Below, piece by piece: positions 20,685 to 34,813 of a stretch of DNA of 64,000 nt. The notes beneath the pieces are model-generated. The model saw only the letters and a list, made by a program, of their open reading frames with translations. It made no database searches and was not told the DNA's origin. This DNA is from Candidatus Acidiferrum sp. GTDB taxonomy: Bacteria; Chloroflexota; Dormibacteria; CF-121. How positions within the stretch are numbered: position 1 is the first letter of the stretch; every line of letters starts with the position of its first letter. Location of the stretch: the NCBI GenBank assembly GCA_035602395.1, contig DATNMH010000052.1, positions 2,829-66,828 of the forward strand, written 5' to 3'. Both the position numbers and the translations under genes were made by a program.

Positions 20685-21455
20685 TCAGCGCTTGGCGGCG
20701 CGGATGAAGGCGCTGGCGATTTTTCCTGATCCTTGTGGCAAGCCGGCTTCGCCGGGCCCGTAGGTGTTGGTGATCTCGATCTCGACGGCGTCGAAGCCAG
20801 CGTCGACCACGGCGGCGCGATATTCGTCGACCGGGATGGTGCCAGCCACGCAGCCGGCCCAGGCGTTGATGGCCGACTTGACCTGCGCCGGTAGTGGCTC
20901 CAGCTCGACCATGTCCGAGACGGCGAACCGTCCGCCTGGCCGCAGAACCCGGAACGCCTCCTTCAGAACCGCCGTCTTGTCGGCGGCGAGGTTGATGACA
21001 CAGTTGGAGATGACGACGTCGACCGCCGCATCGGCCAGTGGGATCGCCTCGATCGTTCCCTTGAGGAAGGTCGCGTTCTCGACGCCGGCGCGTGCTTTGT
21101 TCTCATTGGCGAGCGTCAGCATCTCGTCCGTCATGTCGACACCGTAGGCGTGGCCGCCGGGGGCAACCCGTCGCGCCGAGAGCAGCACATCGAGGCCCGC
21201 GCCACTTCCGAGATCGAGCACGACCTCACCGGCATGCAACTGCGCCAGCGCCGTCGGATTGCCGCAGCCGAGGCTGGCCCCGAGCGAGAGGCCGAGGTCG
21301 GCGACTTCGGCTTTCGAGTACTCCTCTTCGCCGATGGGACCGCTGAGGGCATCCGATCCACCGCAACAGCTCGGGTCGCAGCAGCTGCCGCCATCACGTA
21401 ACTTGATCGCGGTCTCCGCGTACTTCGCTCGGACGGACTCCCGAATCGTGTCCAT
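20685..21455 (-). CDS. arsM: arsenite S-adenosylmethionine methyltransferase
   Basis: Cys-rich N-terminus (GGSCCDPSCCGG) plus SAM motif VLDLGSGAGLD and VISNCVINL. Start at ATG 21455 with GGGAGGG upstream. Confidence 0.9.
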   Translation of the reverse strand: MDTIRESVRAKYAETAIKLRDGGSCCDPSCCGGSDALSGPIGEEEYSKAEVADLGLSLGASLGCGNPTALAQLHAGEVVLDLGSGAGLDVLLSARRVAPGGHAYGVDMTDEMLTLANENKARAGVENATFLKGTIEAIPLADAAVDVVISNCVINLAADKTAVLKEAFRVLRPGGRFAVSDMVELEPLPAQVKSAINAWAGCVAGTIPVDEYRAAVVDAGFDAVEIEITNTYGPGEAGLPQGSGKIASAFIRAAKR

Positions 21456-21481
21456 GAAACCCTCCCGGGAGAGATTGATAT

Positions 21482-21540
21482 CTGTCGATGGGATGGTAGC
21501 AAACCCATAGACAGTTGTCAATGGAACTGCTACACTGACA
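21482..21540. promoter_or_regulatory. divergent arsM/arsR control region with nested inverted repeats (candidate ArsR operator)
   Basis: GACA-GT-TGTC palindrome (21510-21519), TGTCA-N15-TGACA (21516-21540) and CTGTC...GACAG (21482-21514). Confidence 0.3.
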
Positions 21541-21542
21541 GG

Positions 21543-21881
21543 GTGAAGGCCGTCCTGCCGGAGCGCGTCAAGGGTGTCTGCTGCCCGCCGTCGATGCCGA
21601 TGGCGCTTACGAAAGTGGATCATTCGGTGGAGGTCTTGAAGGCGCTGGCCGATCCCACGCGTCTGCAAATGATCAGCATCCTGAAAAATTCGGCGGCGCC
21701 GGTCTGCATTTGTGACTTCACCGCGGCTTTCGATTTGAGCCAGCCGACCATTTCGCATCACATGGCGAAGTTACGGGAAGCTGGACTGGTCGACGTCAGC
21801 AAGGCCGGCATTTGGGCGTACTACCGGCTGGCGAGCCGCCTGGAGCAAAAGACCCGGGCGCTGCTCGACGTGCTGGTCTAG
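21543..21881 (+). CDS. arsR: ArsR/SmtB family metalloregulator
   Basis: LADPTRLQMISIL...VCICDF...SQPTISHHMAKLREAGLV. GTG start. Confidence 0.9.
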   Translation: MKAVLPERVKGVCCPPSMPMALTKVDHSVEVLKALADPTRLQMISILKNSAAPVCICDFTAAFDLSQPTISHHMAKLREAGLVDVSKAGIWAYYRLASRLEQKTRALLDVLV

Positions 21882-21888
21882 GGCGGCC

Positions 21889-22305
21889 ATGTCGAAGGTC
21901 CTGTTCGTCTGCACGCAAAACGCCGGCCGATCGCAGATGAGCGAGGCACTCTTTCGACGCGCGGCCGGCGGCCGACACGAGTCTCGCTCGGCGGGCACGC
22001 GTCCGGCGGAGCACGTCCACCCGGTGGTCGCCGAGGCGATGCGCGAGATCGGCATCGACGTCTCTGGGAACCGACCGCAGAAACTCACGGACGAGCTGGG
22101 TCAATGGGCTGACATCGTCGTCACCATGGGGTGTGGGGATGAGTGCCCCTACATCCCTGGAAAGAAATACGTCGACTGGGATCTCACCGATCCCGCGGAT
22201 AAGTCTCTGGCTGAAGTCCGCGCCATTCGCGACGACATCAAGACACGCGTGAGCGACCTCGTTGTCGAGTTGGACTCGCGAAGGGCCGTTCGCTCAGCGA
22301 GCTAG
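21889..22305 (+). CDS. arsC: arsenate reductase, LMW-PTPase type
   Basis: P-loop VLFVCTQNAGRSQM and downstream GCGDECP. Confidence 0.9.
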   Translation: MSKVLFVCTQNAGRSQMSEALFRRAAGGRHESRSAGTRPAEHVHPVVAEAMREIGIDVSGNRPQKLTDELGQWADIVVTMGCGDECPYIPGKKYVDWDLTDPADKSLAEVRAIRDDIKTRVSDLVVELDSRRAVRSAS

Positions 22306-22772
22306 GGAAGCCAGATCTCGCTCGCCGACTGGACGTCGGTGATCCACCAGCGTCCGTCGATATCGACCAGCGTGTAGTGGTAGTAACCGAGGAAGCGATG
22401 AGTCGTCCGCCGACCCAGGCCGACGCCCTTTTCTGCGTCAGGAACCAGCCGGTAGATCCACTCTTCCTTGGTCGTCACGTTGACGTTCTGGGGGCTCGCT
22501 TCCAGGCCGTAGGCGGAGAGCTCGACCTTGCCGATTTGCAGGTAGGCCGTGTAGGAGACGTCGAGCACCTCGCAGGTGATGTCGAGACGGGCGGCGGGGA
22601 AGGACTCGAAGTCGCCCGAAAGGTCGTGCGCGACCTGGGAGAGCATCGGCTCCAGGTAGACCTCGCGCAACACGTCGGCGTCACGGTTGTTGTACGCCTG
22701 CTGGTTGAGCTTGATCGACCGAAGGACGGTGTCCTTGATCGCCGAGACGTTGAACGCGGTCTCGCGCTGCAC
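22302..22772 (-). CDS. hypothetical protein
   Basis: 156-aa ORF with coding-like codon bias. No family recognised. Confidence 0.5.
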   Translation of the reverse strand: MQRETAFNVSAIKDTVLRSIKLNQQAYNNRDADVLREVYLEPMLSQVAHDLSGDFESFPAARLDITCEVLDVSYTAYLQIGKVELSAYGLEASPQNVNVTTKEEWIYRLVPDAEKGVGLGRRTTHRFLGYYHYTLVDIDGRWWITDVQSASEIWLP

Positions 22773-22928
22773 GCCTAGAGGGTATCAAAGGCCAGAGCGA
22801 CATCCGATTCCGGACGATCGTGTGACGGTTGCGTAAAGCCTTGTGAAACCGGGGGCCACCGGGACCCGCGGCGGCATCGTAGTGCGAAGCAATGCCCTCG
22901 ATCCGCGTCAAATCAATGCGCACTGACC

Positions 22929-22956: not shown

Positions 22957-25050
22957 GTGCCTAAAGAGGGCTTTGTGACCAAACCGCACTCGGCGTCCAG
23001 CTTCCGGACCCGCTTCAACTGGCGTCTCTGGGTGGTGTTGGGGGCCCTGACCGAACTCTTCCTCATCTACGTCGCGCGCTGGTGGGCGCCCTCGCCGGTC
23101 ACCTACTTCCTGGCGGTGCTCTTCCTGCCGGTGATGGTCCTGACCGGCTTCTGGTCCTCCAAGTACTTCAAGCTGGTCCAGCTGAATCTCGAGCTCTCCC
23201 GGCGGGCCGATCAGAACCTCCAGGAGCTGAGCCACTTCTTCGAGACGGCGACCGCGGTCTCCAACCTCACCAAGCTCGGCGAGGACCTGGGCACGCTCAC
23301 CCTGAAGCTGGCGGAGCTGCTCGATGTGGAGATGTGCGGCTTCTTCCTCTACCAGAACGGCCTCGAGGCGCTGATCGCGCCAGCCGCGCCCTCAGGGATG
23401 CGGGAGAGCCGGCTCTTCAACCAGATGCGTCTCAACCAGCTCCGCTTCGGCGCCAACGCATCGACACTGATCGGCCGGGTCTTCGTCACCCAGCAGCCGG
23501 TCATCATCGCCGACTGCCTGCACGACATCGAGGCCGGCCAGCTGCTGCCGCAGACGTTCGGGTACCACGACCTTCTTCTGGTGCCACTCGGCTTCGGTGG
23601 CCGCCCGCTCGGTGTCCTGATGCTGGCCAACAAGCGCAATGGGCAGTTCAGCGGCAACTATGACGTCAAGCTCGCCGCCTCGCTCGGAGCCGAGGTCGCC
23701 GTTTCGCTCGAGAACACGTTCCTCTTCGAGCAAACCCGCCAGCAGGCGCTGCGGCTCGACGCGTCGATGGAGATGCTGCGCCAGGTCTCGCAGGCGCTGA
23801 CGGCGACCACGGTGGGACCGACGGCCCTGCTGCAGGGCGTCGCTCGCGCCGTGATCGGCGTCTCGGGCGCCGCCTCCTGTCTCATCACCCTGACCCAGTC
23901 CGGCAACCCCGCGCAGCAGGCGGTCGAGGTGGGGGAGGGTGCGGACCCCCGACTCCACGCCGATGCCGCGACGCCGGCGGTCCCCGGGCTCGTCACCCAG
24001 GTCGTGATCGAGCAGCGACCCGTCTTCTCCGAGGACGTCCAGCTCGACGGTCGCTTCCCGCTCGATCCGTTCGCCCAGAAGTCCGGCTGGCGGGCTGCCC
24101 TCGGGCTACCGATGTTCCTCGAGCGAGAGTTCGTCGGTACGGTGTCGGTCTACTTTCACGACGTCCGCGCCTTCGATGCCACCCTGATGCAGGTGCTGCA
24201 AATCCTCGCCAACCAGGCCGCGGTCGCCCTCGACAACGCGCGTCGGTTCCAGCGGGAGCGTCAAACGATCCAGATGTTGCAGCGCGCCAACCTGGAACTG
24301 CAGGAAGCCGACCGCATGAAGTCCGAGTTCCTGACCAACATGTCTCACGAGCTCCGCACGCCGCTGAATGCGATCATCGGGTTCTCGGAGATCATCCGTA
24401 CCACCCCCGAGCTTTCTGAAGGCGAGCGCGAAGAGTTCGCGGGGACGATCCACAGCAGCGGCCGCCGGTTGCTGAAGTTGATCAACGACATCCTGCAACT
24501 GACCCACATCCAGGCCGGCCGGCTCGAGCTTCATCCCGCGCCCTGCGTGCTGGCCGAAGCCGTTGACGCGGCGCTGTCGGAAAATGCCGCGGCCGCCAAC
24601 CAGAAAGAGCTCACCGTCACCTCCCAGGTGGACCGGGCGATGCAGGTCGTCTTCGATCCCCAAAGCCTTCGCCACATCGTGCACAACCTGGTCAACAACG
24701 CGATCAAATTCACACCGCATCACGGGAGCGTGATCATCAGCGCCTCCGAGGGCGCGCCCGGCACCATCGTCGAGGTCCGTGACAACGGGATCGGCATCAA
24801 GCCAGAGGACCAGCAACGCCTCTTCGAGGAGTTCCGCCAGGTCGACGGCTCGACCTCGCGCGGCTACGAAGGCGTCGGGCTCGGCCTGGCCCTCTCGAAA
24901 CGACTGGTGGAGCTGCAAGGCGGCCAGATCTGGGTGGAAAGCGCGCCCGGGCGAGGGAGTGTCTTTCGCTTCCTGATCCCGCGGCTGCCTATGCTCGCGG
25001 CGGTCCCGCCCCCGACGCTCGCGGAGGGACCCCTTCCGAGGGTGGCATGA
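22957..25050 (+). CDS. membrane GAF-GAF sensor histidine kinase
   Basis: N-terminal TM helices, two GAF-like regions, H-box SHELRTPLN, and N/G1/G2 boxes (NNAIKFT, DNGIGI, GVGLGLA). Confidence 0.9.
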   Translation: MPKEGFVTKPHSASSFRTRFNWRLWVVLGALTELFLIYVARWWAPSPVTYFLAVLFLPVMVLTGFWSSKYFKLVQLNLELSRRADQNLQELSHFFETATAVSNLTKLGEDLGTLTLKLAELLDVEMCGFFLYQNGLEALIAPAAPSGMRESRLFNQMRLNQLRFGANASTLIGRVFVTQQPVIIADCLHDIEAGQLLPQTFGYHDLLLVPLGFGGRPLGVLMLANKRNGQFSGNYDVKLAASLGAEVAVSLENTFLFEQTRQQALRLDASMEMLRQVSQALTATTVGPTALLQGVARAVIGVSGAASCLITLTQSGNPAQQAVEVGEGADPRLHADAATPAVPGLVTQVVIEQRPVFSEDVQLDGRFPLDPFAQKSGWRAALGLPMFLEREFVGTVSVYFHDVRAFDATLMQVLQILANQAAVALDNARRFQRERQTIQMLQRANLELQEADRMKSEFLTNMSHELRTPLNAIIGFSEIIRTTPELSEGEREEFAGTIHSSGRRLLKLINDILQLTHIQAGRLELHPAPCVLAEAVDAALSENAAAANQKELTVTSQVDRAMQVVFDPQSLRHIVHNLVNNAIKFTPHHGSVIISASEGAPGTIVEVRDNGIGIKPEDQQRLFEEFRQVDGSTSRGYEGVGLGLALSKRLVELQGGQIWVESAPGRGSVFRFLIPRLPMLAAVPPPTLAEGPLPRVA

Positions 25051-27476
25051 CCGAGCAGGGTACGCCTCGCCGGATTCTGATCGCGGACGACGATCCCGAA
25101 CGCCTGCGCACCAGCGTCGAGCGGCTGCAGCAGGAAGGCTTTACCGTGCTCTCCGCGCAGGACGGCCTGGAGGCGCTCGACCGCGCTCGCGAGGAGCTGC
25201 CGGATGCCATCATCCTCAACCTGCTGCTGCGCCGGATCGACGGGCTTCGGGTTTGCGAGATCTTGAAGAGCAACCCGGCGACGACCAACATCCCCGTCCT
25301 CCTCACGGCGGGCGTCCACGTCGATGCCGACGAGGGCCAGCGAGCGCTCGCTGCCGGCGCCGACCGATTTCTGAGCGACCTCAGCCCACTGTCGACCGGC
25401 TCCGGACGCGAACTGGGGAGCCAGGATCTGGTGCAGGCCGTGCGCACCATGCTCGGCGCCGAGCCGGAGCTCGAAGCGCGTCCCATCCTGCTCGCGATCG
25501 ACGACGATCCCGATAACCGCGCCTTCCTCACCAAGGCGGTGGCAAAGCAGGGCTTCGAGGTGGTGACGGCGCCAAACGCCACTCAGGCGCGCCGCCAGCT
25601 CGACTCACGCCGGCCGGCGCTGATCTTCCTCGATGTTCAGATGCCGGAGGAGAGCGGGTTGGCCCTGCTGCCCCAAATGCTGCGCGACTACCCCGAATCG
25701 GTGGTCGTCATGATGACCGCCTACGGGTCGGAACAGGTCGCCGCCGAAGCGCTGCGCGGGGGCGCCGACGACTACATCGCCAAACCGATCGACCTGCAGC
25801 GCCTGCGCGCGCTGCTGGAGCGCAACCTCGACAAGCAGCGGCTGCGCGCCGAGCGGCAGAGTCTGGTGGCGCGGCTGAAGGATTCGAATCGATACCTGAT
25901 GCGACAGCACGCCGCGCTCCGCCGAGCGGACGAAGAAATCCTCCAGATCAACCGGCAGCTGGAGCAGTCGAACCGCTACAAATCAGAATTCCTCGCCAAC
26001 ATGTCGCATGAGCTGCGCACCCCGCTGAACGCCGTCCTCGGCTTCAGCGAAATCCTGCTCGACGCGACCATGAACCTGACGAGCGGCGAACGCACCGAGT
26101 TCCTTCGCAACATCCACAGCAGCGGCCAGCACCTGCTGGGGCTGATCAACGACATCCTCGACCTGGCCAAAATCGAGGCCGGCAAGATGGAACTGCACGC
26201 CGAAGAGATGCCGGTGGCGGAGGCGCTCCAGGAAGTCACCTCGATCCTGGAACCCATGGCCCGCCAGCAGGGGCTGCAGCTGATCCTGGCCGGACTGGCC
26301 GACGTGGGCGTCATCAAAGCGGATCGCAGCAAGTTCAAGCAGGTGCTGTACAACCTGCTCTCGAACGCCGTCAAGTTCACCCCGCCGCCCGGTCAGATCA
26401 CGGTCACGGTCAAGGATTCGCCCGAGCAGCTGACCGTCTCGGTGCACGACACCGGTATCGGGATGAAGGAAGAGGACCTGCCCAAGCTCTTCCGCGAGTT
26501 CGAGCAGATCGACGGCTCCTACACCCGCCGCTACCAGGGCACCGGCCTCGGGCTCGCGCTCTGCCGCCGCTTCGTGGAGATGCACGGCGGCCGGATCTGG
26601 GCGGAGAGCCATTTTGGCAAAGGCTCGACGTTTACCTTCACCATCCCCCGGGACGCGCGGCTCGGGCCCGCGGCCGAGCCCGCCGTGGACGAGGCGCAGA
26701 CGGTCGAATCCATGGAGCTGCCCCTGGTCCTCGTGGTCGAGGACGACCCGGCCAGCAGTCAGCGCTTGACCGCCGAGATCCAGGGGGTGGGCTTTCGGGT
26801 GGCGCACGCGGTCGACGGCAACGAGGCCGTGCGCAAGGCGATGGAGATCCTGCCCGACCTGATCGTGATCGAGACCGTGCTGCCGGTGAAGGACGGCTGG
26901 CAGGTGCTGACAGAGCTGCGCGCCCGCGCGGCCACCGCCGACGTCCCGGTGCTGGTCTGCTCGGTGACCAAAAACCAGCAGCTGATGACCGAGTTTGGCG
27001 TGGTCGGCTACGTCGCGAAACCGTGGGCGACCAAAACCATGCAGGATGAGCTCCGCCGGGTCGGGCTGGGGATCAAGCGACGCCGCGACCGGGTCCGGGT
27101 GTTACTGGTCCACCGCGAGCGGCGGGCGCTGGCGCCGCTGGCGGCCGCCCTGGTGGAGGAAGGTTTTGAGGTCTTTCGGGCGCCCGGGCTGCAGGAGGCC
27201 CTCGAAAAGGCACGGGCGGCGGCGCCCGACGTCGTCGTGCTGGCGCCACCTGAGCCGGAATGGGTCCTGGGCCTGCGCGGGCTGCCCGGGCAACCCGCTT
27301 TGCTGGCCCTGGGTGAAGTTTCACCGAGGGTGCCAGCGACGGCGTGGAGCGCCGTTATACCTACCGGCCTCTCCGAGCCCGATGCCGTATTGCACGCCAT
27401 CAAGGGCCTGGACATCGTTCAGAGGCGAAGGAGGACAGGGCGTGACCGGCGGCAAGGTCTTGATCGTCGAAGATAA
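25047..27476 (+). CDS. hybrid histidine kinase: REC-like/REC/HisKA/HATPase/REC-like/REC-like
   Basis: 809 aa. H-box SHELRTPLN and HATPase boxes. Four receiver folds, of which only the second has a canonical Asp (IFLDVQMP). ATGA overlap with the upstream gene. Confidence 0.9.
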   Translation: MTEQGTPRRILIADDDPERLRTSVERLQQEGFTVLSAQDGLEALDRAREELPDAIILNLLLRRIDGLRVCEILKSNPATTNIPVLLTAGVHVDADEGQRALAAGADRFLSDLSPLSTGSGRELGSQDLVQAVRTMLGAEPELEARPILLAIDDDPDNRAFLTKAVAKQGFEVVTAPNATQARRQLDSRRPALIFLDVQMPEESGLALLPQMLRDYPESVVVMMTAYGSEQVAAEALRGGADDYIAKPIDLQRLRALLERNLDKQRLRAERQSLVARLKDSNRYLMRQHAALRRADEEILQINRQLEQSNRYKSEFLANMSHELRTPLNAVLGFSEILLDATMNLTSGERTEFLRNIHSSGQHLLGLINDILDLAKIEAGKMELHAEEMPVAEALQEVTSILEPMARQQGLQLILAGLADVGVIKADRSKFKQVLYNLLSNAVKFTPPPGQITVTVKDSPEQLTVSVHDTGIGMKEEDLPKLFREFEQIDGSYTRRYQGTGLGLALCRRFVEMHGGRIWAESHFGKGSTFTFTIPRDARLGPAAEPAVDEAQTVESMELPLVLVVEDDPASSQRLTAEIQGVGFRVAHAVDGNEAVRKAMEILPDLIVIETVLPVKDGWQVLTELRARAATADVPVLVCSVTKNQQLMTEFGVVGYVAKPWATKTMQDELRRVGLGIKRRRDRVRVLLVHRERRALAPLAAALVEEGFEVFRAPGLQEALEKARAAAPDVVVLAPPEPEWVLGLRGLPGQPALLALGEVSPRVPATAWSAVIPTGLSEPDAVLHAIKGLDIVQRRRRTGRDRRQGLDRRR

Positions 27477-27831
27477 TCCGGTCAATCTCAGGTTGGCCCA
27501 GTTCCTTCTGGAAAAAAAGGGCTTTACCGTCCGCAAGGCGGGCAGCGGCGCCGAATGCCTGGCGGAGATGGCCCGCGAGCTTCCGGACATCGTCCTGATG
27601 GACATCCAGCTTCCCAGCGAGGATGGGCTGGCGGTCACTCGCAAGATCCGCTCCGACCCACGCCTGGCGGGCGTGATCGTGGTCGCCCTGACGGCGCACG
27701 CCATGGCCGGTGACCGGGAACGAATCCTGGCGGCCGGCTGCGACGGCTATATCCCTAAGCCGGTCGACCCGCAGGGGCTGCCCGGCGAGGTGGCGCGGTA
27801 TCTCGAGCAAGGACGGTTGAAAACGGCCTGA
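27442..27831 (+). CDS. stand-alone CheY-like response regulator receiver
   Basis: VLIVEDNPVN...IVLMDIQLP...ALTAHAM...YIPKP. GTG 27442 with GAAGGAGGA upstream. Overlaps the upstream gene by 35 nt. Confidence 0.85.
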   Translation: MTGGKVLIVEDNPVNLRLAQFLLEKKGFTVRKAGSGAECLAEMARELPDIVLMDIQLPSEDGLAVTRKIRSDPRLAGVIVVALTAHAMAGDRERILAAGCDGYIPKPVDPQGLPGEVARYLEQGRLKTA

Positions 27832-28166
27832 TGCCAGACCAGCCCCCGAAAACCAGCCGCTCCTATCCCGACATCCTCAAACTCAACCAGGAGCTGGTGC
27901 GCAACCTCCAGGGCTTGAATGACGAGGACGAGGCGCGCAAGAAGGAGCTCGAGCAGCTCAAGGTCGCCCACGACCAGGCGAAGGCCGAGATCGCCCGCCT
28001 ACAGGAAGAGCTTCGCCACTCGACCGAACGCGAGGCCGCCCGGCAGGAGGAGCTTCGCCAGCTGGAGCAGGAACGGGTGGACCAGCTGGGTGCGATGGAT
28101 GCCCACCTCAACGCGATGCATTCGGCGGTGGAGCGCTACCTGCAGCAGGGTCGGAAGGCGGCCTGA
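27831..28166 (+). CDS. small coiled-coil protein, N-terminal paralog of the next gene
   Basis: 111 aa with heptad-rich sequence. TGATG start/stop overlaps at both ends. Confidence 0.65.
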   Translation: MPDQPPKTSRSYPDILKLNQELVRNLQGLNDEDEARKKELEQLKVAHDQAKAEIARLQEELRHSTEREAARQEELRQLEQERVDQLGAMDAHLNAMHSAVERYLQQGRKAA

Positions 28167-30613
28167 TGAGTCCGGAGCCATCCAAGGCGAAATCGTTCGC
28201 CGACATCCTGCAGCAGAACCAGGAGTTCATCGCGCACCTCCAGACGCTGCAGGAAGACATCGCCACGCAGCTGGAAGAAAAGGCTAAGGAACTGGCGATG
28301 GTGAAACGCCAGCTGGCGGCCAAGCAGCAAGAGACCGACGAGCTGCAGAATTCGCAGCTCCAGTGGGCCATCGACCGCCAGGCCCTTCTCGATCAGCACG
28401 AAGCCCTCAAACAGGGACACCAGGACCTGCAGCAGAGCCACGACCGCGGCCAGGTCGAGCTCGGGCGGCTCAAGGATGACGTCGCCCGCGCCAAGGCGCG
28501 CGATGAGGAGCGCCGCAGCCAGCTCCGACAGCTGGAGCAGGAGCGCATGCAGATCACGCAGAAATTCGAGGCCGACCAGAAGAAGATCCGGGCCGACCTG
28601 AAGTCCGCGCAGGACGATCTCGACAGCCTGCAGTCGGCCCAGCTCCAGTGGGCCATGGATCGCGAAACGCTGCTGAAAGATCGAGACACCGTGGTCGCCA
28701 AGCAGGCGCAACTGGAGCAGGATTGGCAGAAGGGCCGCGCCGACCTCACCCTGGACAAGGTCCGCTTGACGGAACTTACGACCCAGCTGCAGCAGCAGTT
28801 GAAGGCCGTCCAGGCCGAGCTCGAGCCGATCAAGGCGGCCCGCGACAAGTGGCAGGCGGAGCGGCAGCGGCTGATCGCCGACGTGGCGCGGCTGGAGCAG
28901 GGCGGGCAGGAAGCCGAGGCCCAGTTCAAGGCCGACCGCCGGCTCCTGCAGGGACAGCTCGAGGAAGCCCGCAAGAAGGGGGCCGATCTCGACAAAGCCG
29001 AGGCGGAGTTCCAGCGGGTCAGCGACGAGCGCTCGGCGCTGCTGAGCAAGGTCAAGGCCCTGGAAAAGGACTGGCAAATTCGCGAGTCGTCGGTCGCCGA
29101 GGAAAAGGCGGGGTTGAAGAAGCAGGCCGGCGACGCCACCGCCAAGCTTGCAGCCGTGCTGCAGGACGCCGAGAAGCTCAAGGCGCTCCACGCCGACCTC
29201 GCCGGTGAGACGAGCCGCAAAGCGGAGGAATGGACCGCCCGAGAGCAGCGACTGACCTCCGAAAAGAACCAGCTCAAGGTCGACCTGGAGCGGGTGCAGG
29301 CGCAGCTCTCCGACATGATGTCGCAGACCAACGAGCTGCACAGTGAGCGGGCGAAGGAAGCTAAGGAACTGGACGAAGCCTGGAAACGGGAAAAGGCGTC
29401 GCTCAAAGCCCAGCTCGAGGAGGCCCGCAAGGCGGCCGGGAGCGGGCCGCCCACCAGCCAGGTGCTCGCCCGCTACGAAGCCGAGAAGCGCGCCATGCAG
29501 GCGCAGCTGGACAGCGTGCGCAACGACCTGGCCGCGAGCGGCAAACACAAGGACACGGCACCGGCGTTGGCCCAGGCGAAGCGCGACTTCGAGGCCAAGT
29601 TCCGCGTCATCTACGACCAGAGCCACGACCTCAACTCACCGCTCAACGCGATCCTGGGCTTCAGCGAGATCCTGCTCGACGAAAAGGCCAACAAGACGAC
29701 GCCCGAAGAACGGCGCGAGTTCGTCGCTCACATCAACGAGAGCGGCAAGCGGCTCGTCGAACATATCCGCGAGCTGATCGAGTTCGCCAAGCAGGAAGCC
29801 GGCATCCAGGAGCGCCCGGTGCAGATGGTACCGCCGGTCGGGGCCGGGACCAAGCCGCCCGTCATCCTGGTTGCCGACAACGACCCGGCGGTCAAGGAGC
29901 GGATCGAGCCCTTCCTCAGCCACGCCGGTTACGAAGTCGTGATCGCCGCCAGCGCCCAGGAGGCGCTGCGCAAGGCCGTCCAACTGCAGCCGCTCGCGGT
30001 CCTCATCGACACCCAGCTGCCGCCCAACGGCGGAAGCGGACTCGTCTATGACCTGCGGCGCGAATCGAAAACCAAGGACATCCCGATCGTGTTGACCTCC
30101 AAGGTCAACAAGGAATCGCTCGCCTTCGACATTGGCCAGGCCGACTTCCTGACCAAGCCGATCGACCGTCAGCAGCTGCTGCAGATGATGGTGAAGTTCG
30201 ACCTGCTGGCCGACGGCAAGCGGGGCAAAAAGACCCCGTCCTCCATCCTGATCGTGGACGACGACCCGCAGAACATCCGCTTGATCAAGGCGATGCTGAA
30301 ACCGTTCAACATCGAGGTCATGGTCGCCGACGGCGGCAAGGCCGGCGTCGAAATGGCCCTGAAGAAGAAGCCCGATCTCATCATCCTCGACCTGATGATG
30401 CCGGACGTCGATGGCTTCGAGGTTGTCTCCAAACTCAAAGAGGACCCCGCGGCGAGCCAGATCCCCATCCTTATCTATACGGCCAAAAACATCACCAGCG
30501 AGGACCGCGAGCGCCTGCAGGGGAACATCCAGTCGATCATCCAGAAAGGGGACTTTGGCAAAGACCGCTTCCTCGAGATGATCAACAACCTCCAGATCAG
30601 CCAGGCCGCCTAG
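28166..30613 (+). CDS. coiled-coil / DHp (HisKA-like, no ATPase domain) / REC / REC protein
   Basis: 815 aa: about 480 aa of coiled coil, then H-box SHDLNSPLNAILGFSEILL (His codon 29624-29626). No N/G boxes. Two receivers follow (AVLIDTQLP; LIILDLMMPDVDG). Confidence 0.85.
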   Translation: MSPEPSKAKSFADILQQNQEFIAHLQTLQEDIATQLEEKAKELAMVKRQLAAKQQETDELQNSQLQWAIDRQALLDQHEALKQGHQDLQQSHDRGQVELGRLKDDVARAKARDEERRSQLRQLEQERMQITQKFEADQKKIRADLKSAQDDLDSLQSAQLQWAMDRETLLKDRDTVVAKQAQLEQDWQKGRADLTLDKVRLTELTTQLQQQLKAVQAELEPIKAARDKWQAERQRLIADVARLEQGGQEAEAQFKADRRLLQGQLEEARKKGADLDKAEAEFQRVSDERSALLSKVKALEKDWQIRESSVAEEKAGLKKQAGDATAKLAAVLQDAEKLKALHADLAGETSRKAEEWTAREQRLTSEKNQLKVDLERVQAQLSDMMSQTNELHSERAKEAKELDEAWKREKASLKAQLEEARKAAGSGPPTSQVLARYEAEKRAMQAQLDSVRNDLAASGKHKDTAPALAQAKRDFEAKFRVIYDQSHDLNSPLNAILGFSEILLDEKANKTTPEERREFVAHINESGKRLVEHIRELIEFAKQEAGIQERPVQMVPPVGAGTKPPVILVADNDPAVKERIEPFLSHAGYEVVIAASAQEALRKAVQLQPLAVLIDTQLPPNGGSGLVYDLRRESKTKDIPIVLTSKVNKESLAFDIGQADFLTKPIDRQQLLQMMVKFDLLADGKRGKKTPSSILIVDDDPQNIRLIKAMLKPFNIEVMVADGGKAGVEMALKKKPDLIILDLMMPDVDGFEVVSKLKEDPAASQIPILIYTAKNITSEDRERLQGNIQSIIQKGDFGKDRFLEMINNLQISQAA

Positions 30614-30628
30614 GACCGGGGGGCCGGC

Positions 30629-32893
30629 ATGACTGCCCTCGATCGCCAGCTCGTCCGACTCCGCTTCGCCGCGCTCGCGATTCCATTTGGCCTGCTCCTC
30701 TGGCTGCCTTCGGCGTCAGTCGCGATCACGATCGTGCTCGCCGGACTGATGGCCGCCTACAACGGCATCGCGTTGCTCGCGATCCGCAGGCGGGCCGCCC
30801 CGCGTTTCGCCCGCCCGATGGCGGTCCTGCTGCTGGTTCTCGACCACGCCGTCATCAGCGCCTGGATCCTGCTCTTCGCCGGTCCATCCTCGAGCCTTCC
30901 GTACCTGCTCTATGCGCTGGTTGCGGCCGAAGCCGTCTTTCGCTTCGAGCTCTGGGGTGGGATCGGGACCAGCCTCTTTTTCACCAGCGGCGTCATCCTC
31001 TTCCAGACCAGCGACCTGGGCCTCGCCATCTCGGTCCGCGACTCGGTGCTCCGCGCCATCCCGACGGTGGTCGTTATCACCGGCTTGGGCGCCGCGGTGC
31101 GCGCGATGAACACCGAGATTCGTGGCACGCGACGGCGGCTCGATCAGACAGAACAATTGCGCAATGTGCTGGGCGAGCTGGTCGGACAGCTCGACGTCTC
31201 ACGGATGCTCAACACCGTGATCCGGTGCGGCATGGAGCTGCTCCAGATGGATTCCGGCGCCATCGTCCTCCTGGATGAAGATCGCGGCGTCTTCACCTTG
31301 CGCGCCGCGGTCCGTCTGCCGGGGGCTGTCGAAGGGTCAGCTATCTCGGCGGCGGACGGCATCGTTGGCCGAGTCGTGCGGGAGAAGCGCTTCGTCATGC
31401 TGGTCGAGCCTCCGCTCTTCGACCTCAATGCCCTCAACGCGGCCGGCTACGCGCGCGCCTTCGGCTCCCCCGTGGTGCTGGAAGGCAAGGTCTTCGGCGT
31501 GCTGCACCTCCAGACCCACGATGACCAGCGACGCCTGACGCGATGGGAAGAGGAGGCGCTGGAGGTCCTCTCGCAGCAGCTGGCAGTGGCGCTTCGCAAC
31601 GTCCGTCTCTTCGAGGAAAGCGAGAAGCGCGCCCGGCGGCTCGAGCTCCTCAACCAATCGATCGACCAGATGAATCAGAAGCTCTTCGAGCCCGAGCTAC
31701 TGGACGTGGTCGCGACCGCCCTCACCGGTAACCTCGGGTTCGCCGCGGCGCAGGTCTGGCTGCTCGAGCCAAGCGACGGCGCCCTCTGGCGGCGTGCCAG
31801 CCACCACACCACCGCCGAGCCGCCGCCCGTCTCCGGACGGGTCGAGCGTGGGATGAGCGAGATCGGCCAGGTCGCCGAACTGCGGGTGCCGATCGTGACC
31901 AACGACCCTGCCAACCATCGCCAGGTTGGCCTCAGTCCGTGGATGACCGAGGAGGGCATCCAGGCCTTCGCGGGCTTTCCGCTGGTCGTCGGCGAGCAAC
32001 TGCTGGGCGTGCTCGCCGTCTATCACCGGCGCCCGCTCGACCGCAACACGATCGAGCTGTTGACCCTGTTCGCGCAGCACGCCGCCACCGCGATCCAGGA
32101 AGCGCACCTCTTTCACCTCGCCACCGAACAAACGGCGCGGCTCACCGCGCTCAACGTCGAGCTGCAGCGCGCCAATCAACACAAGGCGGAGTTCCTCGCC
32201 AACATGAGCCATGAGCTGCGCACGCCGCTCAACTCGATCCTCGGGTTCTCGCAGTTGCTGCTCGAAGGTGACGGCGGCGTCCTGACCGGCGATCAGCGGC
32301 AGGACGTCGACATCATTGCCCAGAATGGACAACACCTGCTGGCGCTGATCAACGACCTGCTCGATATCTCGAAGCTGGAGGCGGGCAAAGCGCAGCTCCA
32401 TCGCGGCGAGGTCGAGGTCGAGCCGCTGATCTCGGAGTGTGTCGAGAGCGTCCGGTCCCTGGCCAAAACCAAAAAGCTCGATCTGAGCGCGAGCGTCTCG
32501 CCCGAGGTGGGCCGCGTCTTCGCCGACGGCCCCAAGCTCAAGCAGGTCCTGCTGAACCTGCTCGGCAATGCCATCAAGTTCACCGAGACCGGCAGCGTCC
32601 GCGTCACGGCCGAACGTCAAGGCGCCGAGTTGCGCGTCAGCGTGCGCGACACCGGCATCGGCGTCCCCGTTGAGGACACCGAGCGGATCTTCGAGAGCTT
32701 TCAGCAGGGCAAGAGCGGCATCAGCGGCAAATACCAGGGCACCGGCCTGGGCCTGGCGATCTCTCGCCAGCTGGTGGAAATGCACGGCGGCCGCATCTGG
32801 GTGAAGAGTGCAGCCGGCCAGGGCAGCACGTTCACCTTCACCATTCCTCAGCGGGCCGTCCCCGACGCGATCGACCTGTCGAGCGCGGCGTAA
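30629..32893 (+). CDS. polytopic membrane GAF-GAF sensor histidine kinase
   Basis: About 6 TM helices, two GAF regions, SHELRTPLN, and HATPase boxes (GNAIKFT, DTGIGV, GTGLGLA). Confidence 0.9.
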   Translation: MTALDRQLVRLRFAALAIPFGLLLWLPSASVAITIVLAGLMAAYNGIALLAIRRRAAPRFARPMAVLLLVLDHAVISAWILLFAGPSSSLPYLLYALVAAEAVFRFELWGGIGTSLFFTSGVILFQTSDLGLAISVRDSVLRAIPTVVVITGLGAAVRAMNTEIRGTRRRLDQTEQLRNVLGELVGQLDVSRMLNTVIRCGMELLQMDSGAIVLLDEDRGVFTLRAAVRLPGAVEGSAISAADGIVGRVVREKRFVMLVEPPLFDLNALNAAGYARAFGSPVVLEGKVFGVLHLQTHDDQRRLTRWEEEALEVLSQQLAVALRNVRLFEESEKRARRLELLNQSIDQMNQKLFEPELLDVVATALTGNLGFAAAQVWLLEPSDGALWRRASHHTTAEPPPVSGRVERGMSEIGQVAELRVPIVTNDPANHRQVGLSPWMTEEGIQAFAGFPLVVGEQLLGVLAVYHRRPLDRNTIELLTLFAQHAATAIQEAHLFHLATEQTARLTALNVELQRANQHKAEFLANMSHELRTPLNSILGFSQLLLEGDGGVLTGDQRQDVDIIAQNGQHLLALINDLLDISKLEAGKAQLHRGEVEVEPLISECVESVRSLAKTKKLDLSASVSPEVGRVFADGPKLKQVLLNLLGNAIKFTETGSVRVTAERQGAELRVSVRDTGIGVPVEDTERIFESFQQGKSGISGKYQGTGLGLAISRQLVEMHGGRIWVKSAAGQGSTFTFTIPQRAVPDAIDLSSAA

Positions 32894-33530: not shown

Positions 33531-33599
33531 TTAATGGATCCAGAGCGGGAAGGAGAGGATGAAGACGAGAACGCCGAGACCCAGGGTGCGCATGCTCAT
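33531..33599 (-). CDS. candidate 22-aa hydrophobic peptide translationally coupled to the response regulator
   Basis: ATGA overlap with the regulator stop (33596-33599). Sequence MSMRTLGLGVLVFILSFPLWIH forms a single TM helix. Confidence 0.3.
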   Translation of the reverse strand: MSMRTLGLGVLVFILSFPLWIH

Positions 33600-34462
33600 C
33601 CCGCCATCGCCAGTGGCTCTTGTCCGGCCGGGTAGTTGACCTTGGCGCTGAAGCGGTAGCCGACGCCACGCTTGGTTTGGATGTAGACGGGTTTGCTGGG
33701 GTTGGGCTCGATCTTGCTGCGCAGGCGCGAGATGTGCACGCGCAGGCCCTCTTCGTAGGCTTCCTCGTCGCCGGCCCATGCCTTGGCCAGGAGGGTCTCG
33801 TTGGTGACGACCCGGCCGGCGTTGCGGACGAGGAGGAACAGCAGCTTGGACTCAGTCGGCGTCAGGGTCACCTGCTGGCCTTTGACGCGAGCCCAGTGCT
33901 GGACGAAGTTGATCTGCAGATCCTGGTCGATGACGACTTCCGGCTGCTCGACGCCGGCGGACTCGCCGTAGCGGCGCAGCACGCGCTGCACGCGGGCGAC
34001 CAGCTCTTCTTTCTCGAAGGGCTTGACGATGTAGTCCTCGGCGTACATTTGCAGGCCCTCGACCTTGCTCTCCACCGCCGCGACCGCGCTGAGGATGACG
34101 ATCGGGACATCGAGGTGGCTCTTGATGCGGCGGCAGAGTTCGAAGCCGTCCATCTCCGGCATCATCAGATCGACGACGACCAGGTGCGGGATTCCCTCGT
34201 GGAGTTTGCGCAGCGCCTCGGGACCACTGCCGGCGGTCATGACCTCGTAGCCCGCGTGCTCGAGGATGCGCTTCAGGATCTCGCGCGCCATCGCATCGTC
34301 GTCGACGATTAGAATCCGGTACCGGTTGACGATGTTAAACCCCTCTCTTCCGGCGGCCAGTGCGCGTCGCGCTGCCGACCGGCCACCATGGATTTGGACC
34401 TGCGGCTGCTGGCTCAGGTCCGACTGGAGAGCCGGCAAAGGTATATGGCCCTCGTCATGCAT
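33596..34462 (-). CDS. OmpR/PhoB family response regulator
   Basis: REC (ILIVDDD...VVVDLMMPEMDG...KPF) plus winged helix (LTPTESKLLFLL...IQTKRGVGYRF). The start is uncertain: ATG 34462 gives a 43-aa extension, and the alternative is ATC 34333. Confidence 0.9.
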   Translation of the reverse strand: MHDEGHIPLPALQSDLSQQPQVQIHGGRSAARRALAAGREGFNIVNRYRILIVDDDAMAREILKRILEHAGYEVMTAGSGPEALRKLHEGIPHLVVVDLMMPEMDGFELCRRIKSHLDVPIVILSAVAAVESKVEGLQMYAEDYIVKPFEKEELVARVQRVLRRYGESAGVEQPEVVIDQDLQINFVQHWARVKGQQVTLTPTESKLLFLLVRNAGRVVTNETLLAKAWAGDEEAYEEGLRVHISRLRSKIEPNPSKPVYIQTKRGVGYRFSAKVNYPAGQEPLAMAG

Positions 34463-34605: not shown

Positions 34606-34638
34606 AAAAAAAGGGCGCGAGCGGTGCCTCTCGCGCCC
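34606..34638 (-). terminator. orphan rho-independent terminator (minus strand)
   Basis: 9-bp stem GGGCGCGAG/CUCGCGCCC with an 8-nt loop, followed on the minus strand by U7. There is no minus-strand gene upstream of it. Confidence 0.65.
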
Positions 34639-34729
34639 CCGTGGGGCAAGCCTATGGCGAGCCCGGCGGGGATGAATCGGTCGGTCGGCCCATCAGGGCG
34701 GGCTGAGCGGCTAAAATTCTGTGGCCCTA

Positions 34730-34813
34730 GCCCGGGTGGTGAAACTGGTAGACACGCAGCTTTGAGGGGGCTGTGAGCGCAAGCTTGTAAGGGTTCAAAT
34801 CCCTTCCCGGGCA
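34730..34813 (+). tRNA. tRNA-Leu (anticodon GAG), class II with long variable arm
   Basis: Hand-folded. Acceptor GCCCGGG/CCCGGGC, D-loop AAACTGGTAGA, anticodon loop TTGAGGG, variable arm GAGC-GCAA-GCTT, T-arm AAGGG-TTCAAAT-CCCTT, discriminator A. No encoded CCA. Confidence 0.95.

What the first reader, a model, noticed from the sequence alone, without database searches (positions are those of the whole stretch)
22957..32893. Six-gene translationally coupled phosphorelay operon with coiled-coil proteins and no output domain
All six genes are on the plus strand and tightly coupled:
- ATGA overlap at 25047-25050
- 35-nt overlap at 27442-27476
- TGATG overlaps at 27829-27833 and 28164-28168
- a 15-nt gap before 30629

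Gene content in order:
1. GAF-GAF membrane kinase
2. four-receiver hybrid kinase
3. CheY-like receiver
4. 111-aa coiled-coil protein
5. 815-aa coiled-coil/DHp/REC/REC protein
6. second polytopic GAF-GAF kinase

That totals three complete kinase cores, one ATPase-less DHp, seven receiver folds and about 600 residues of coiled coil. No HTH, GGDEF/EAL, CheB/CheR or other effector domain is present.

Receiver-plus-coiled-coil proteins such as FrzS, AglZ and RomR in Myxococcus act as polar scaffolds. By analogy, the output here could be spatial or cytoskeletal rather than transcriptional. I do not recognise this gene order as a described system.
Basis: partly seen in the sequence, partly recalled or inferred. 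Interest (0 to 1): 0.7.

Follow-up and report, generated by a model that had tools for sequence, protein, structure and literature searches.

The report
Dormibacterota phosphorelay operon ending in coiled-coil protein
This is a real six-gene signalling operon, conserved in one uncultured soil phylum (Dormibacterota), in which three sensor kinases appear to feed phosphate into a long rod-like protein rather than a gene regulator, so its output may be structural, although a regulator gene nearby remains an alternative.

Summary
The same gene order recurs in about 30 species-level Dormibacterota MAGs, and every gene is under purifying selection.

Three refinements apply.
- Three of the four g2 receivers are invariant pseudo-receivers (Asn58, Glu609, Ala733). 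Only four of the seven receiver folds keep the phospho-Asp.
- g4 is a truncated copy of the g5 N-terminus.
- g5 is about 445 residues of helix, then a DHp with an invariant His and no ATPase, then two canonical receivers. It belongs to an undescribed paralog family that appears centred on this phylum.

No effector domain lies inside the operon. What stays linked is an ultra-conserved NTF2-like gene upstream, transcribed divergently.

My best reading is a multi-kinase relay converging on g5, which would act as an internal His-phosphotransfer and receiver hub with a scaffold-type output. That output is inferred, not shown. I rate it a new variant of a known kind, of moderate interest.

The parts
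22302..22772 (-). up156: a 156-aa cytoplasmic NTF2-like protein transcribed divergently from g1. It is the most conserved gene of the neighbourhood and stays linked to g1-g6 in all lineages sampled.
   Evidence: No Pfam or NCBIfam family. Only 28 clusters at 90% identity, all from Dormibacterota-type MAGs. AF2 pLDDT 76; the best PDB matches are ARC6/PARC6 NTF2-like domains at E~1e-3 and TM 0.55-0.6, followed by other NTF2-like folds. Position 1+2 to position 3 divergence is 0.019/0.342. It lies next to g1 in 26 loci, including the most divergent.
22833..22847 (+). Conserved intergenic element GTAAA-N4-TGT(A/G/T)AA. On the other strand it reads TT(T/C)ACA-N4-TTTAC, a direct repeat with a 10-bp period. 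It is a candidate regulator-binding site.
   Evidence: Near-invariant in the alignment of 25 intergenic regions. It occurs once per locus and only in this region. Chance expectation in the window is 0.14 matches at up to 2 mismatches.
22884..22921 (+). Conserved block GCGAAGCAATGC...CGTCAAATCAATGCGC directly upstream of the g1 start. It is the probable operon promoter or leader.
   Evidence: Alignment of the intergenic regions and a unique match in the window. Its function is inferred.
22957..25050 (+). g1: membrane-anchored GAF-GAF-DHp-CA histidine kinase (His464)
   Evidence: Pfam; hydropathy; His invariant in 27/27 sequences.
25047..27476 (+). g2: soluble kinase with the layout pseudoREC(Asn58)-REC(Asp196)-DHp(His321)-CA-pseudoREC(Glu609)-pseudoREC(Ala733)-Arg-rich tail (VQRRRRTGRDRRQGLDRRR)
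   Evidence: Pfam; alignment to CheY; the key residues are invariant or nearly so across 28 orthologs; the fourth receiver is supported by the PDB profile search; tail conservation.
27442..27831 (+). g3: single-domain receiver (Asp54), CheY/Spo0F-like
   Evidence: Pfam E=8e-27; Asp invariant in 31/31 sequences; Shine-Dalgarno sequence plus GTG start.
27831..28166 (+). g4: 111-aa helical protein, a truncated paralog of the g5 N-terminus, ending in ...QQGRKAA
   Evidence: BLASTP against g5 residues 72-128 gives 39% identity, E=2e-8. The ~170-aa version in L030 begins SFQEILEQNQQFISHLQALQE, like g5. The ORF is kept in 28 loci, with a divergence ratio of 0.34.
28196..29533 (+). g5 N-terminal rod: about 445 residues of alpha-helix in three segments, with recurring W-x-x-(E/D)-R motifs
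   Evidence: AF2 secondary structure; heptad periodicity and motif list; 77-81% conserved.
29561..29797 (+). g5 DHp (HisKA) helical hairpin with His487 (codon 29624-29626). No ATP-binding domain follows.
   Evidence: Pfam HisKA E=2.5e-13 with no HATPase_c hit. His is invariant in 31/31 orthologs and 23/23 family members. AF2 helices at 466-504 and 513-544, with the first receiver starting 20 residues later.
29852..30589 (+). g5 tandem canonical receivers (Asp615, Asp742). This is the most conserved segment of the operon.
   Evidence: Pfam; alignment to CheY; Asp invariant and 93-97% column identity.
30629..32893 (+). g6: polytopic-membrane GAF-GAF-DHp-CA histidine kinase (His528), ending in ...SSAA
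   Evidence: Pfam; hydropathy; His invariant; still follows the g5 ortholog at 52% identity.
33596..34462 (-). Orphan OmpR-family response regulator (REC plus winged helix) convergent with the operon. It is a candidate transcriptional output, and its membership is uncertain.
   Evidence: Pfam. The best NCBIfam models are RpaB and MtrA, both below cut-off. It is 96% conserved and has no kinase of its own nearby. It is absent downstream of g6 in L025 and L083.

Best explanation
This is a conserved Dormibacterota signalling module: the divergent gene up156 plus the operon g1-g6. It encodes a branched, multi-kinase His-Asp phosphorelay.

Proposed flow:
1. Two membrane GAF-GAF kinases (g1, g6) and one soluble kinase gated by its own receiver (g2) autophosphorylate.
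2. Their DHp helix-1 surfaces are nearly identical to each other and to that of g5, so they probably address the same receivers: g3, g2-REC2 and the g5 receivers.
3. g5 has a DHp with an invariant His but no ATPase. It therefore cannot autophosphorylate and most likely acts as a built-in histidine phosphotransferase, in the manner of Spo0B, ChpT or RedE, shuttling phosphate between g3 and its own two receivers.
4. The phosphorylation state of the g5 receiver pair is the output. It would change the assembly or partner binding of the ~445-residue helical rod.
5. g4, a truncated copy of the rod's N-terminus, co-assembles with or caps that rod.

Shown here: the gene order, the domains, the catalytic residues, the conservation and the paralogy. 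Inferred: the direction of phosphate flow, the g4-g5 interaction and the structural nature of the output.
For: - Operon and coupling. No + strand terminator above chance inside the cluster.
- Conservation: the same order in about 30 species, down to 62% g5 identity, and the g5-g6 pair still adjacent at 52%. All genes are under purifying selection.
- Catalytic residues: His is invariant in all four DHps, and Asp is invariant in g2-REC2, g3, g5-REC1 and g5-REC2.
- Shared specificity surface: the four DHps share PLNA(I/V)(I/L)GFSE(I/L)L after the His.
- No Hpt domain anywhere, so the ATPase-less g5 DHp is the only candidate for a second His step.
- g5 H-box across 23 family members: His 23/23 and Ser at +4 23/23, but the acidic +1 residue in only 10/23. 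The acceptor His is what is conserved, not the autokinase/phosphatase motif.
- DHp-REC-REC is the most constrained part of the operon, at 93-97%.
- The rod carries conserved sequence motifs shared with paralogs at 35-45% identity, namely the N-terminal SFxxLLxxxQxF and the repeated QLQWAxDRExLL. It is therefore more than a spacer.
- g4 is homologous to the g5 N-terminus.
- No effector domain in any of the six proteins.
- Precedent for a kinase-like protein that accepts phosphate from a receiver in an output-less operon: RedCDEF (PMC2755868).
Against: - No biochemical, transcript or localisation data exist, and the organisms are uncultured.
- g5 orthologs keep Asp488 at +1 and Ser at +4. A phosphatase role, or trans-phosphorylation by a partner kinase's ATPase domain, cannot be excluded.
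- A long coiled coil ahead of a DHp could simply be a dimerisation or signalling helix.
- An orphan, extremely conserved OmpR-type regulator lies two genes away in most species and could be the true output.
- The AF2 model has pTM 0.27, so nothing can be said about the rod's higher-order arrangement.
- Taxon labels on the MAGs are inconsistent, so restriction to the phylum is probable rather than proven.
Confidence: 0.45

Rival explanations
1. Transcriptional output. The relay ends on the neighbouring orphan OmpR/RpaB/MtrA-like regulator (33596-34462, - strand). g5 would be an intermediate His-phosphotransferase and g3 a Spo0F-like shuttle, giving a Spo0F-Spo0B-Spo0A-type relay. The conserved direct repeat in the up156-g1 intergenic region could be that regulator's autoregulatory site.
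For: - The regulator has no kinase gene of its own nearby.
- It is adjacent to g6, separated only by GDT1, in about 20 species.
- It is under very strong purifying selection, with a divergence ratio of 0.074.
- The three kinases have no DNA-binding partner in the operon.
- A conserved 10-bp-period direct repeat lies in the divergent promoter region.
Against: - The gene is on the opposite strand, behind an unrelated transporter gene.
- The linkage is absent in L025 (g5 75% identity) and L083 (52%), where other genes follow g6. The up156 and g1-g6 linkage persists there.
- General synteny is high among the close relatives, so adjacency alone is weak evidence.
- The repeat occurs nowhere else in the loci, so it cannot be tied to this regulator.
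Confidence: 0.3
2. g5 is a phosphate sink or phosphatase, a negative modulator in the manner of RedE or of receiver sinks in chemotaxis. It drains phosphate from g3 or g2, and the coiled coil serves only for dimerisation. The real output is g3, a single-domain receiver acting by protein-protein contact elsewhere.
For: - g5 orthologs retain H-D-L-N-S, close to the HisKA phosphatase motif H-E/D-x-x-T/N (motif as quoted in PMC12963549).
- g5 carries two receivers able to absorb phosphate.
- RedE acts this way (PMC2755868).
- Single-domain receivers often are outputs (general knowledge).
Against: - The +1 acidic residue is lost in most paralogs while the His is invariant.
- The rod is long, carries conserved motifs and has a dedicated mini-paralog, g4. 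That is excessive for a mere dimeriser.
- The g5 C-terminal module is the most conserved part of the operon.
Confidence: 0.15
3. The six genes are an accidental juxtaposition of independent two-component genes with no common pathway.
For: There is no direct evidence of co-transcription or of interaction between the products.
Against: - Four of the five junctions overlap or abut, and the fifth is a 15-nt gap.
- The order is invariant across about 30 species despite rearranged flanks.
- The DHp domains are mutually paralogous.
- g4 and g5 are paralogous.
Confidence: 0.05

Closest known systems
RedCDEF 'four-component' system of Myxococcus xanthus (PMC2755868)
   Same: One operon holds a true kinase, a kinase-like protein that cannot autophosphorylate but accepts phosphate from a receiver, a dual-receiver protein and a single-domain receiver. 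None of them has an effector domain.
   Different: RedE keeps a HATPase_c domain, whereas g5 has none. Here the dual receiver and the DHp are fused to a ~445-residue coiled coil. There are three kinases rather than one, two of them GAF-GAF membrane sensors. No sequence orthology was detected.
Spo0F-Spo0B and ChpT-type histidine phosphotransferases in multistep relays (Bacillus sporulation relay as summarised in PMC11210211; ChpT from my own knowledge)
   Same: A single-domain receiver is paired with a DHp-like four-helix-bundle protein that carries the transfer His and cannot use ATP. Several kinases feed one relay.
   Different: Spo0B and ChpT retain a degenerate ATPase-like lobe and are small stand-alone proteins. 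The g5 DHp is a bona fide HisKA (Pfam E=2.5e-13) flanked by a giant coiled coil and two receivers. The terminal DNA-binding regulator is not in the operon.
FrzS / AglZ / RomR polar response-regulator scaffolds of Myxococcus (PMC1974792, PMC9811614, PMC2034494)
   Same: A receiver domain is combined with a long coiled coil and no enzymatic or DNA-binding output. Function is exerted through localisation or scaffolding.
   Different: The domain order is reversed. The FrzS receiver lacks the phospho-Asp, whereas both g5 receivers keep it. FrzS has no DHp. No homology was detected.
PsmA, the histidine pseudokinase of the Streptomyces polarisome (PMC12963549)
   Same: A hybrid-kinase-like protein acts as a structural modulator of a coiled-coil (DivIVA) assembly rather than through transcription.
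   Different: PsmA has lost the H-box His and keeps a dead CA domain plus a long disordered linker. g5 keeps the His invariantly, has no CA domain and is itself the coiled coil.
Multi-receiver soluble hybrid kinases such as RodK of M. xanthus (from my own knowledge, not checked here)
   Same: g2 is a soluble kinase carrying several receiver domains.
   Different: Three of the four g2 receivers are invariant pseudo-receivers (Asn, Glu and Ala at the phospho-site). Two receivers precede the kinase core, and the protein ends in a conserved Arg-rich tail.

Membership tests
Canonical hybrid-kinase phosphorelay (HK-REC-Hpt-RR) | HisKA plus HATPase_c kinase core with a conserved His | tested here: met
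   g1, g2 and g6. His invariant.
Canonical hybrid-kinase phosphorelay (HK-REC-Hpt-RR) | An Hpt domain or protein providing the second His | tested here: not met
   No Hpt hit in any of the six proteins at E<=0.01 or in NCBIfam.
Canonical hybrid-kinase phosphorelay (HK-REC-Hpt-RR) | A terminal response regulator with an effector domain encoded in the system | tested here: inconclusive
   None inside the operon. An orphan OmpR-type regulator lies nearby on the other strand, but the linkage is lost in L025 and L083.
Spo0B/ChpT-like histidine phosphotransferase (g5 DHp) | A DHp four-helix-bundle element with a phosphorylatable His and no functional ATP-binding domain | tested here: met
   HisKA hit with no HATPase_c. 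AF2 helical hairpin followed directly by a receiver. His present in 23/23 family members.
Spo0B/ChpT-like histidine phosphotransferase (g5 DHp) | Reversible phosphotransfer between two receivers | not testable with these tools
   Needs in vitro phosphotransfer assays with g3, the g5 receivers and an H487A mutant.
Spo0B/ChpT-like histidine phosphotransferase (g5 DHp) | Sequence membership in the Spo0B or ChpT families | tested here: not met
   No Spo0B or ChpT model appears among the Pfam or NCBIfam hits. The g5 DHp matches generic HisKA only.
FrzS/AglZ-type receiver-coiled-coil scaffold | An N-terminal (atypical) receiver followed by a C-terminal coiled coil | tested here: not met
   g5 has the opposite order, coiled coil then DHp then REC-REC.
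FrzS/AglZ-type receiver-coiled-coil scaffold | Polar or dynamic subcellular localisation that mediates function | not testable with these tools
   Needs microscopy in a host. The organisms are uncultured.
RedCDEF-like four-component system | A kinase, a non-autophosphorylating kinase-like protein, a dual receiver and a single receiver in one operon without an effector domain | tested here: met
   The domain inventory matches at the level of parts. Here the kinase-like element and the dual receiver are fused in g5.
RedCDEF-like four-component system | Orthology to the RedC, RedD, RedE and RedF proteins | tested here: not met
   Homologs of g5 with the full architecture come only from Dormibacterota-type MAGs. 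Hits elsewhere are ordinary hybrid kinases that match only the HisKA and receiver parts.
Histidine pseudokinase scaffold (PsmA-like) | Loss of the H-box His | tested here: not met
   His487 is invariant in 31 orthologs and 23 family members.

The most novel reading that the evidence does not exclude
The g5 family (coiled coil, His-bearing DHp without ATPase, two receivers), together with its mini-paralog g4, would be a phylum-specific cytoskeleton-like or scaffold polymer that is itself a phosphorelay component. Its assembly state would be written directly by His-Asp phosphotransfer from GAF-sensor kinases. Its abundance would be set by proteolysis through the conserved C-terminal Ala-Ala, and the ultra-conserved NTF2-like up156 would be a partner. 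That would be a new class of signal-gated bacterial structural element in an uncultured phylum.
Probability: 0.2. Interest if true: 0.75.

Novelty: new variant of a known kind. Interest (0 to 1): 0.45.

Why it matters
Dormibacterota are abundant, uncultured soil and permafrost bacteria whose cell biology is unknown. This module is one of their conserved, lineage-specific signalling systems. It shows an architecture I found in no family library or paper: a bona fide HisKA dimerisation/phosphotransfer domain stripped of its ATPase and welded between a ~65-nm-scale helical rod and two live receivers.

If the output is structural, it would extend the short list of two-component proteins that act as scaffolds (FrzS, RomR, PsmA) to one in which the scaffold carries both the His and the Asp steps. 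The proteins are soluble and could be tested by heterologous expression, so the hypothesis is directly testable despite the lack of cultures.

If the output is the neighbouring OmpR-type regulator, the system would be a Spo0-like relay that arose independently in a new phylum.

Tried and rejected
- Known named systems. NCBIfam gave only sub-threshold generic hits (HrmK, BarA, TorS, PnpS for the kinases; RpaB and MtrA for the neighbouring regulator). No equivalog was found.
- Ligand of the GAF domains. Only weak matches to PtsP and phosphodiesterase GAF domains in PDB, at E>=5e-5, so no ligand can be inferred.
- Spread of the cluster outside Dormibacterota. The genome scan returned only ordinary hybrid kinases beyond the phylum, matching HisKA and receiver with an intervening ATPase domain. 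Taxon labels such as Binatus, Eisenbacteria, Actinomycetes and Streptosporangiaceae sit on near-identical loci, and I take them to be binning or labelling noise.
- Tying the conserved intergenic repeat to the OmpR-type regulator. There is one copy per locus and none elsewhere, so no regulon signal emerges. My first two pattern searches used the wrong core or spacing and found nothing.
- up156 as a known family. There are no sequence families. The fold is generic NTF2-like, with ARC6/PARC6 as best match at borderline E~1e-3, which is not enough to assign a cell-division role.
- Terminators or promoters splitting the operon. Consensus scans were at chance level.
- AF2 on full-length g5. It gives secondary structure only (pTM 0.27), so I did not run a fold search on it.
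- Literature on Dormibacterota signalling. Nothing relevant was found.

Full report

Yes.
- g1 22957-25050 and g2 25047-27476 share ATGA.
- g3 starts at GTG 27442, behind GAAGGAGGA and 35 nt inside g2.
- g3/g4 and g4/g5 share TGATG at 27829-27833 and 28164-28168.
- g6 starts 15 nt after the g5 stop.

Pfam confirms the domain content.
- g1 and g6 are GAF-GAF-HisKA-HATPase_c.
- g2 has three clear receivers around HisKA-HATPase_c.
- g3 is a single receiver, and g4 matches no family.
- g5 has HisKA without HATPase_c, followed by two receivers.

The fourth g2 receiver, which Pfam misses, is supported by a profile search against PDB in which every top hit is a receiver domain (KdpE at E=3.6e-5). Hydropathy shows one or two membrane segments in g1 and about five in g6. 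AF2 predicts g5 as helices 11-236, 248-423 and 431-456, then a DHp hairpin at 466-504/513-544, then two receiver folds (mean pLDDT 71). Hydrophobic residues show significant 3.5-residue periodicity along the rod and in g4. Consensus scans find no + strand terminator above chance inside the cluster. That is weak evidence, and no transcript data exist.

**2. Source and conservation**

The window is a metagenomic scaffold. Close homologs of g5 are labelled Candidatus Dormibacteraeota or 'Chloroflexi bacterium' MAGs.

A scan of one genome per GTDB species found 33 loci with a full-length g5 relative. In every locus long enough to judge, tblastn with all six proteins shows the same order g1-g2-g3-g4-g5-g6, down to 62% g5 identity. 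In those most divergent loci g4 escaped tblastn, but a ~170-aa g4-like ORF occupies the slot between g3 and g5. A 52%-identical g5 relative is still followed by a g6-like GAF-GAF kinase. Beyond this group the hits are ordinary hybrid kinases.

Codon-position divergence shows all six genes are protein-coding and under purifying selection. Position 1+2 to position 3 ratios are 0.17-0.34, with about 35-42% divergence at third positions.

The flanks are less stable.
- The ArsR/LMW-phosphatase/methyltransferase genes upstream are absent in the divergent loci.
- GDT1 and the OmpR-type regulator downstream are replaced by other genes in L025 and L083.
- The divergent 156-aa gene up156 is always retained next to g1.

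The conserved core is therefore up156 plus g1-g6.

**3. Anatomy in detail**

*Receivers.* I aligned the seven receiver folds with E. coli CheY (sequence from memory) and scored 22-32 orthologs.
- The phospho-acceptor Asp is present and invariant only in g2-REC2 (D196), g3 (D54), g5-REC1 (D615) and g5-REC2 (D742).
- g2-REC1 has Asn58 and g2-REC3 has Glu609, both invariant.
- g2-REC4 has Ala733, in 25 of 28 sequences.

Three of the 'four receivers' of g2 are thus fixed pseudo-receivers. g2 also ends in a conserved Arg-rich tail, VQRRRRTGR(D/E)RRQGxDRRR.

*DHp domains.* All four DHps keep the His in every ortholog. They are mutual paralogs with almost the same helix-1 sequence after the His, PLNA(I/V)(I/L)GFSE(I/L)L. 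This is the region known from the literature to set kinase-receiver specificity (my knowledge).

*The g5 C-terminal module.* DHp-REC-REC is the most conserved part of the operon at 93-97% column identity. The rod is at 77-81%.

*g4.* It is homologous to g5 residues 72-128. Its ~170-aa counterpart in L030 starts with the g5 N-terminal motif. g4 is therefore a truncated duplicate of the g5 N-terminus.

**4. A wider, undescribed family**

An exhaustive HMMER search and a profile search show proteins at 35-50% identity with the same layout: helical N-terminus, His-bearing DHp with no ATPase, then two receivers.

Shared features:
- an N-terminal motif of the type SFxxLLxxxQxF,
- repeated QLQWAxDRExLL-type motifs (g5 has seven W-x-x-x-R/E sites),
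- often a KRGERRxR..AA tail.

All informative source names are Dormibacterota-type MAGs, with a few inconsistent labels.

Genomic contexts:
- One paralog sits in a uvrBAC - small zf-C4_ClpX protein - paralog - lgt - whiA - gap slot. It occurs in the same MAG as a full operon (L034 and L031).
- Other paralogs are stand-alone in unrelated contexts.

Across 23 family members the His is invariant and Ser at +4 is invariant. The acidic +1 residue of the HisKA autokinase/phosphatase motif is kept in only 10, including the g5 orthologs.

**5. How it most likely works**

*Shown.* There are three complete kinases, four live receivers, one ATPase-less DHp with a conserved His, no Hpt domain and no effector domain.

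*Inferred.*
- g1 and g6 sense unknown ligands through GAF domains. PDB comparisons give no ligand clue.
- g2 is a soluble kinase gated by phosphorylation of its own REC2.
- Because the DHp specificity surfaces are so alike, the kinases probably converge on the same receivers.
- With no Hpt present, the g5 DHp is the only candidate for a second His step. That would make g5 a self-contained REC-His-REC relay module fed directly or through g3, comparable to Spo0F-Spo0B or to RedD-RedE (PMC2755868).
- g5 carries nothing but a long motif-bearing rod, and the operon encodes a dedicated mini-copy of that rod. The most economical output is therefore a phosphorylation-dependent change in rod assembly or partner binding.

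I give this whole chain a confidence of 0.45. The first half (a multi-kinase relay converging on g5) is considerably more secure than the last step (a structural output).

**6. Rivals**

(a) *Output through the orphan OmpR/RpaB/MtrA-like regulator at 33596-34462*. It is attractive because it is orphan, adjacent in about 20 species and extremely conserved. Against it, it is on the other strand behind a transporter gene, and the linkage is lost in the divergent lineages that keep the operon. Confidence 0.3.

(b) *g5 as a phosphate sink or phosphatase, with g3 as the true output.* Confidence 0.15.

(c) *Accidental clustering.* Confidence 0.05, contradicted by the coupling, the conservation and the paralogy.

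**7. Comparison with known systems**

- Functionally the nearest are RedCDEF and the Spo0/ChpT relays.
- Architecturally, FrzS/AglZ share receiver plus coiled coil, but with reversed order, a receiver lacking the Asp and no DHp (PMC1974792).
- PsmA shows that kinase-like proteins can be polarisome scaffolds, but it has lost the His that g5 keeps (PMC12963549).

No family library model and no paper I could find describes this operon or the g5 family. I therefore class it as a new variant of a known kind: a multistep two-component relay with a new terminal architecture, in an uncultured phylum.

**8. Verdict**

Interest is moderate, at 0.45. Complex output-less two-component operons are not rare, but the ATPase-less HisKA embedded in a coiled-coil/dual-receiver protein, its mini-paralog, the paralog family centred on this phylum and the ultra-conserved NTF2-like partner gene make it a good target for heterologous biochemistry.

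Noticed in passing
window 22302-22772 (- strand): The 156-aa protein up156 is the most strongly constrained gene in the neighbourhood, with 2.6% amino-acid divergence against 34% third-position divergence. It matches no sequence family and is found only in Dormibacterota-type MAGs. Its predicted fold is NTF2-like, and the best PDB matches are the ARC6/PARC6 plastid-division domains at borderline significance.
   Followed up: partly
window 28155-28163 (g4 C-terminus), 30602-30610 (g5), 32882-32890 (g6); also the paralogs P0154-P0177 and L034:9908-11707: g4, g5, g6 and almost all g5 paralogs end in Ala-Ala (KAA, QAA, SAA, ...RKRAA). This is conserved across orthologs. Among about 62 crude genes in the window, only these do so, against 1.6% expected per gene. 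It resembles ssrA/CtrA-type ClpXP C-terminal degrons (PMC8138137). Untested.
   Followed up: partly
L082:9677-9958 and L034:9717-9938: A 73-93-aa stand-alone ClpX-type zinc-finger protein (zf-C4_ClpX) sits directly upstream of the g5 paralog, between uvrC and lgt-whiA-gap. From memory, Firmicutes and Actinobacteria carry rapZ-yvcK before whiA in that slot.
   Followed up: no
window 22833-22847 and 22884-22921: Two sequence islands in the up156-g1 intergenic region are conserved across the sampled Dormibacterota loci. One is a GTAAA-N4-TGTRAA direct-repeat element that occurs once per locus. The other is a ~38-nt block just upstream of the g1 start. They are probably an operator and a promoter. 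From memory, the repeat resembles OmpR-family sites such as RpaB HLR1.
   Followed up: partly
window 27417-27473 (g2 C-terminus): The Arg-rich tail VQRRRRTGRDRRQGLDRRR is conserved even in the most divergent orthologs. g5 paralogs carry a similar KRGERRxR tail. Binding of a polyanion, nucleic acid or nucleotide second messenger is conceivable but was not tested.
   Followed up: no
window 20685-22305: A SAM-methyltransferase, an ArsR-type HTH regulator and a low-molecular-weight phosphatase (ArsC-like) form an arsenic-resistance-like trio. It is inserted between a cold-shock gene and up156 in this lineage and absent in the divergent loci L025, L030 and L032.
   Followed up: partly
window 34611-34640 (- strand) and tRNA-Leu(GAG) at 34730-34813 (+): A strong terminator-like hairpin (11 pairs followed by a T-run) lies upstream of the OmpR-type regulator's annotated start. 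That ORF also has a 48-aa N-terminal extension that is less conserved (87%) than the rest, so the true start codon may lie further downstream.
   Followed up: no
L014, L030, L012; P0418, P0166: NCBI organism labels on near-identical loci disagree (Binatus, Eisenbacteria, Actinomycetes, Streptosporangiaceae, Limnocylindrales). This probably reflects mis-binned or mislabelled MAG contigs rather than horizontal transfer.
   Followed up: no
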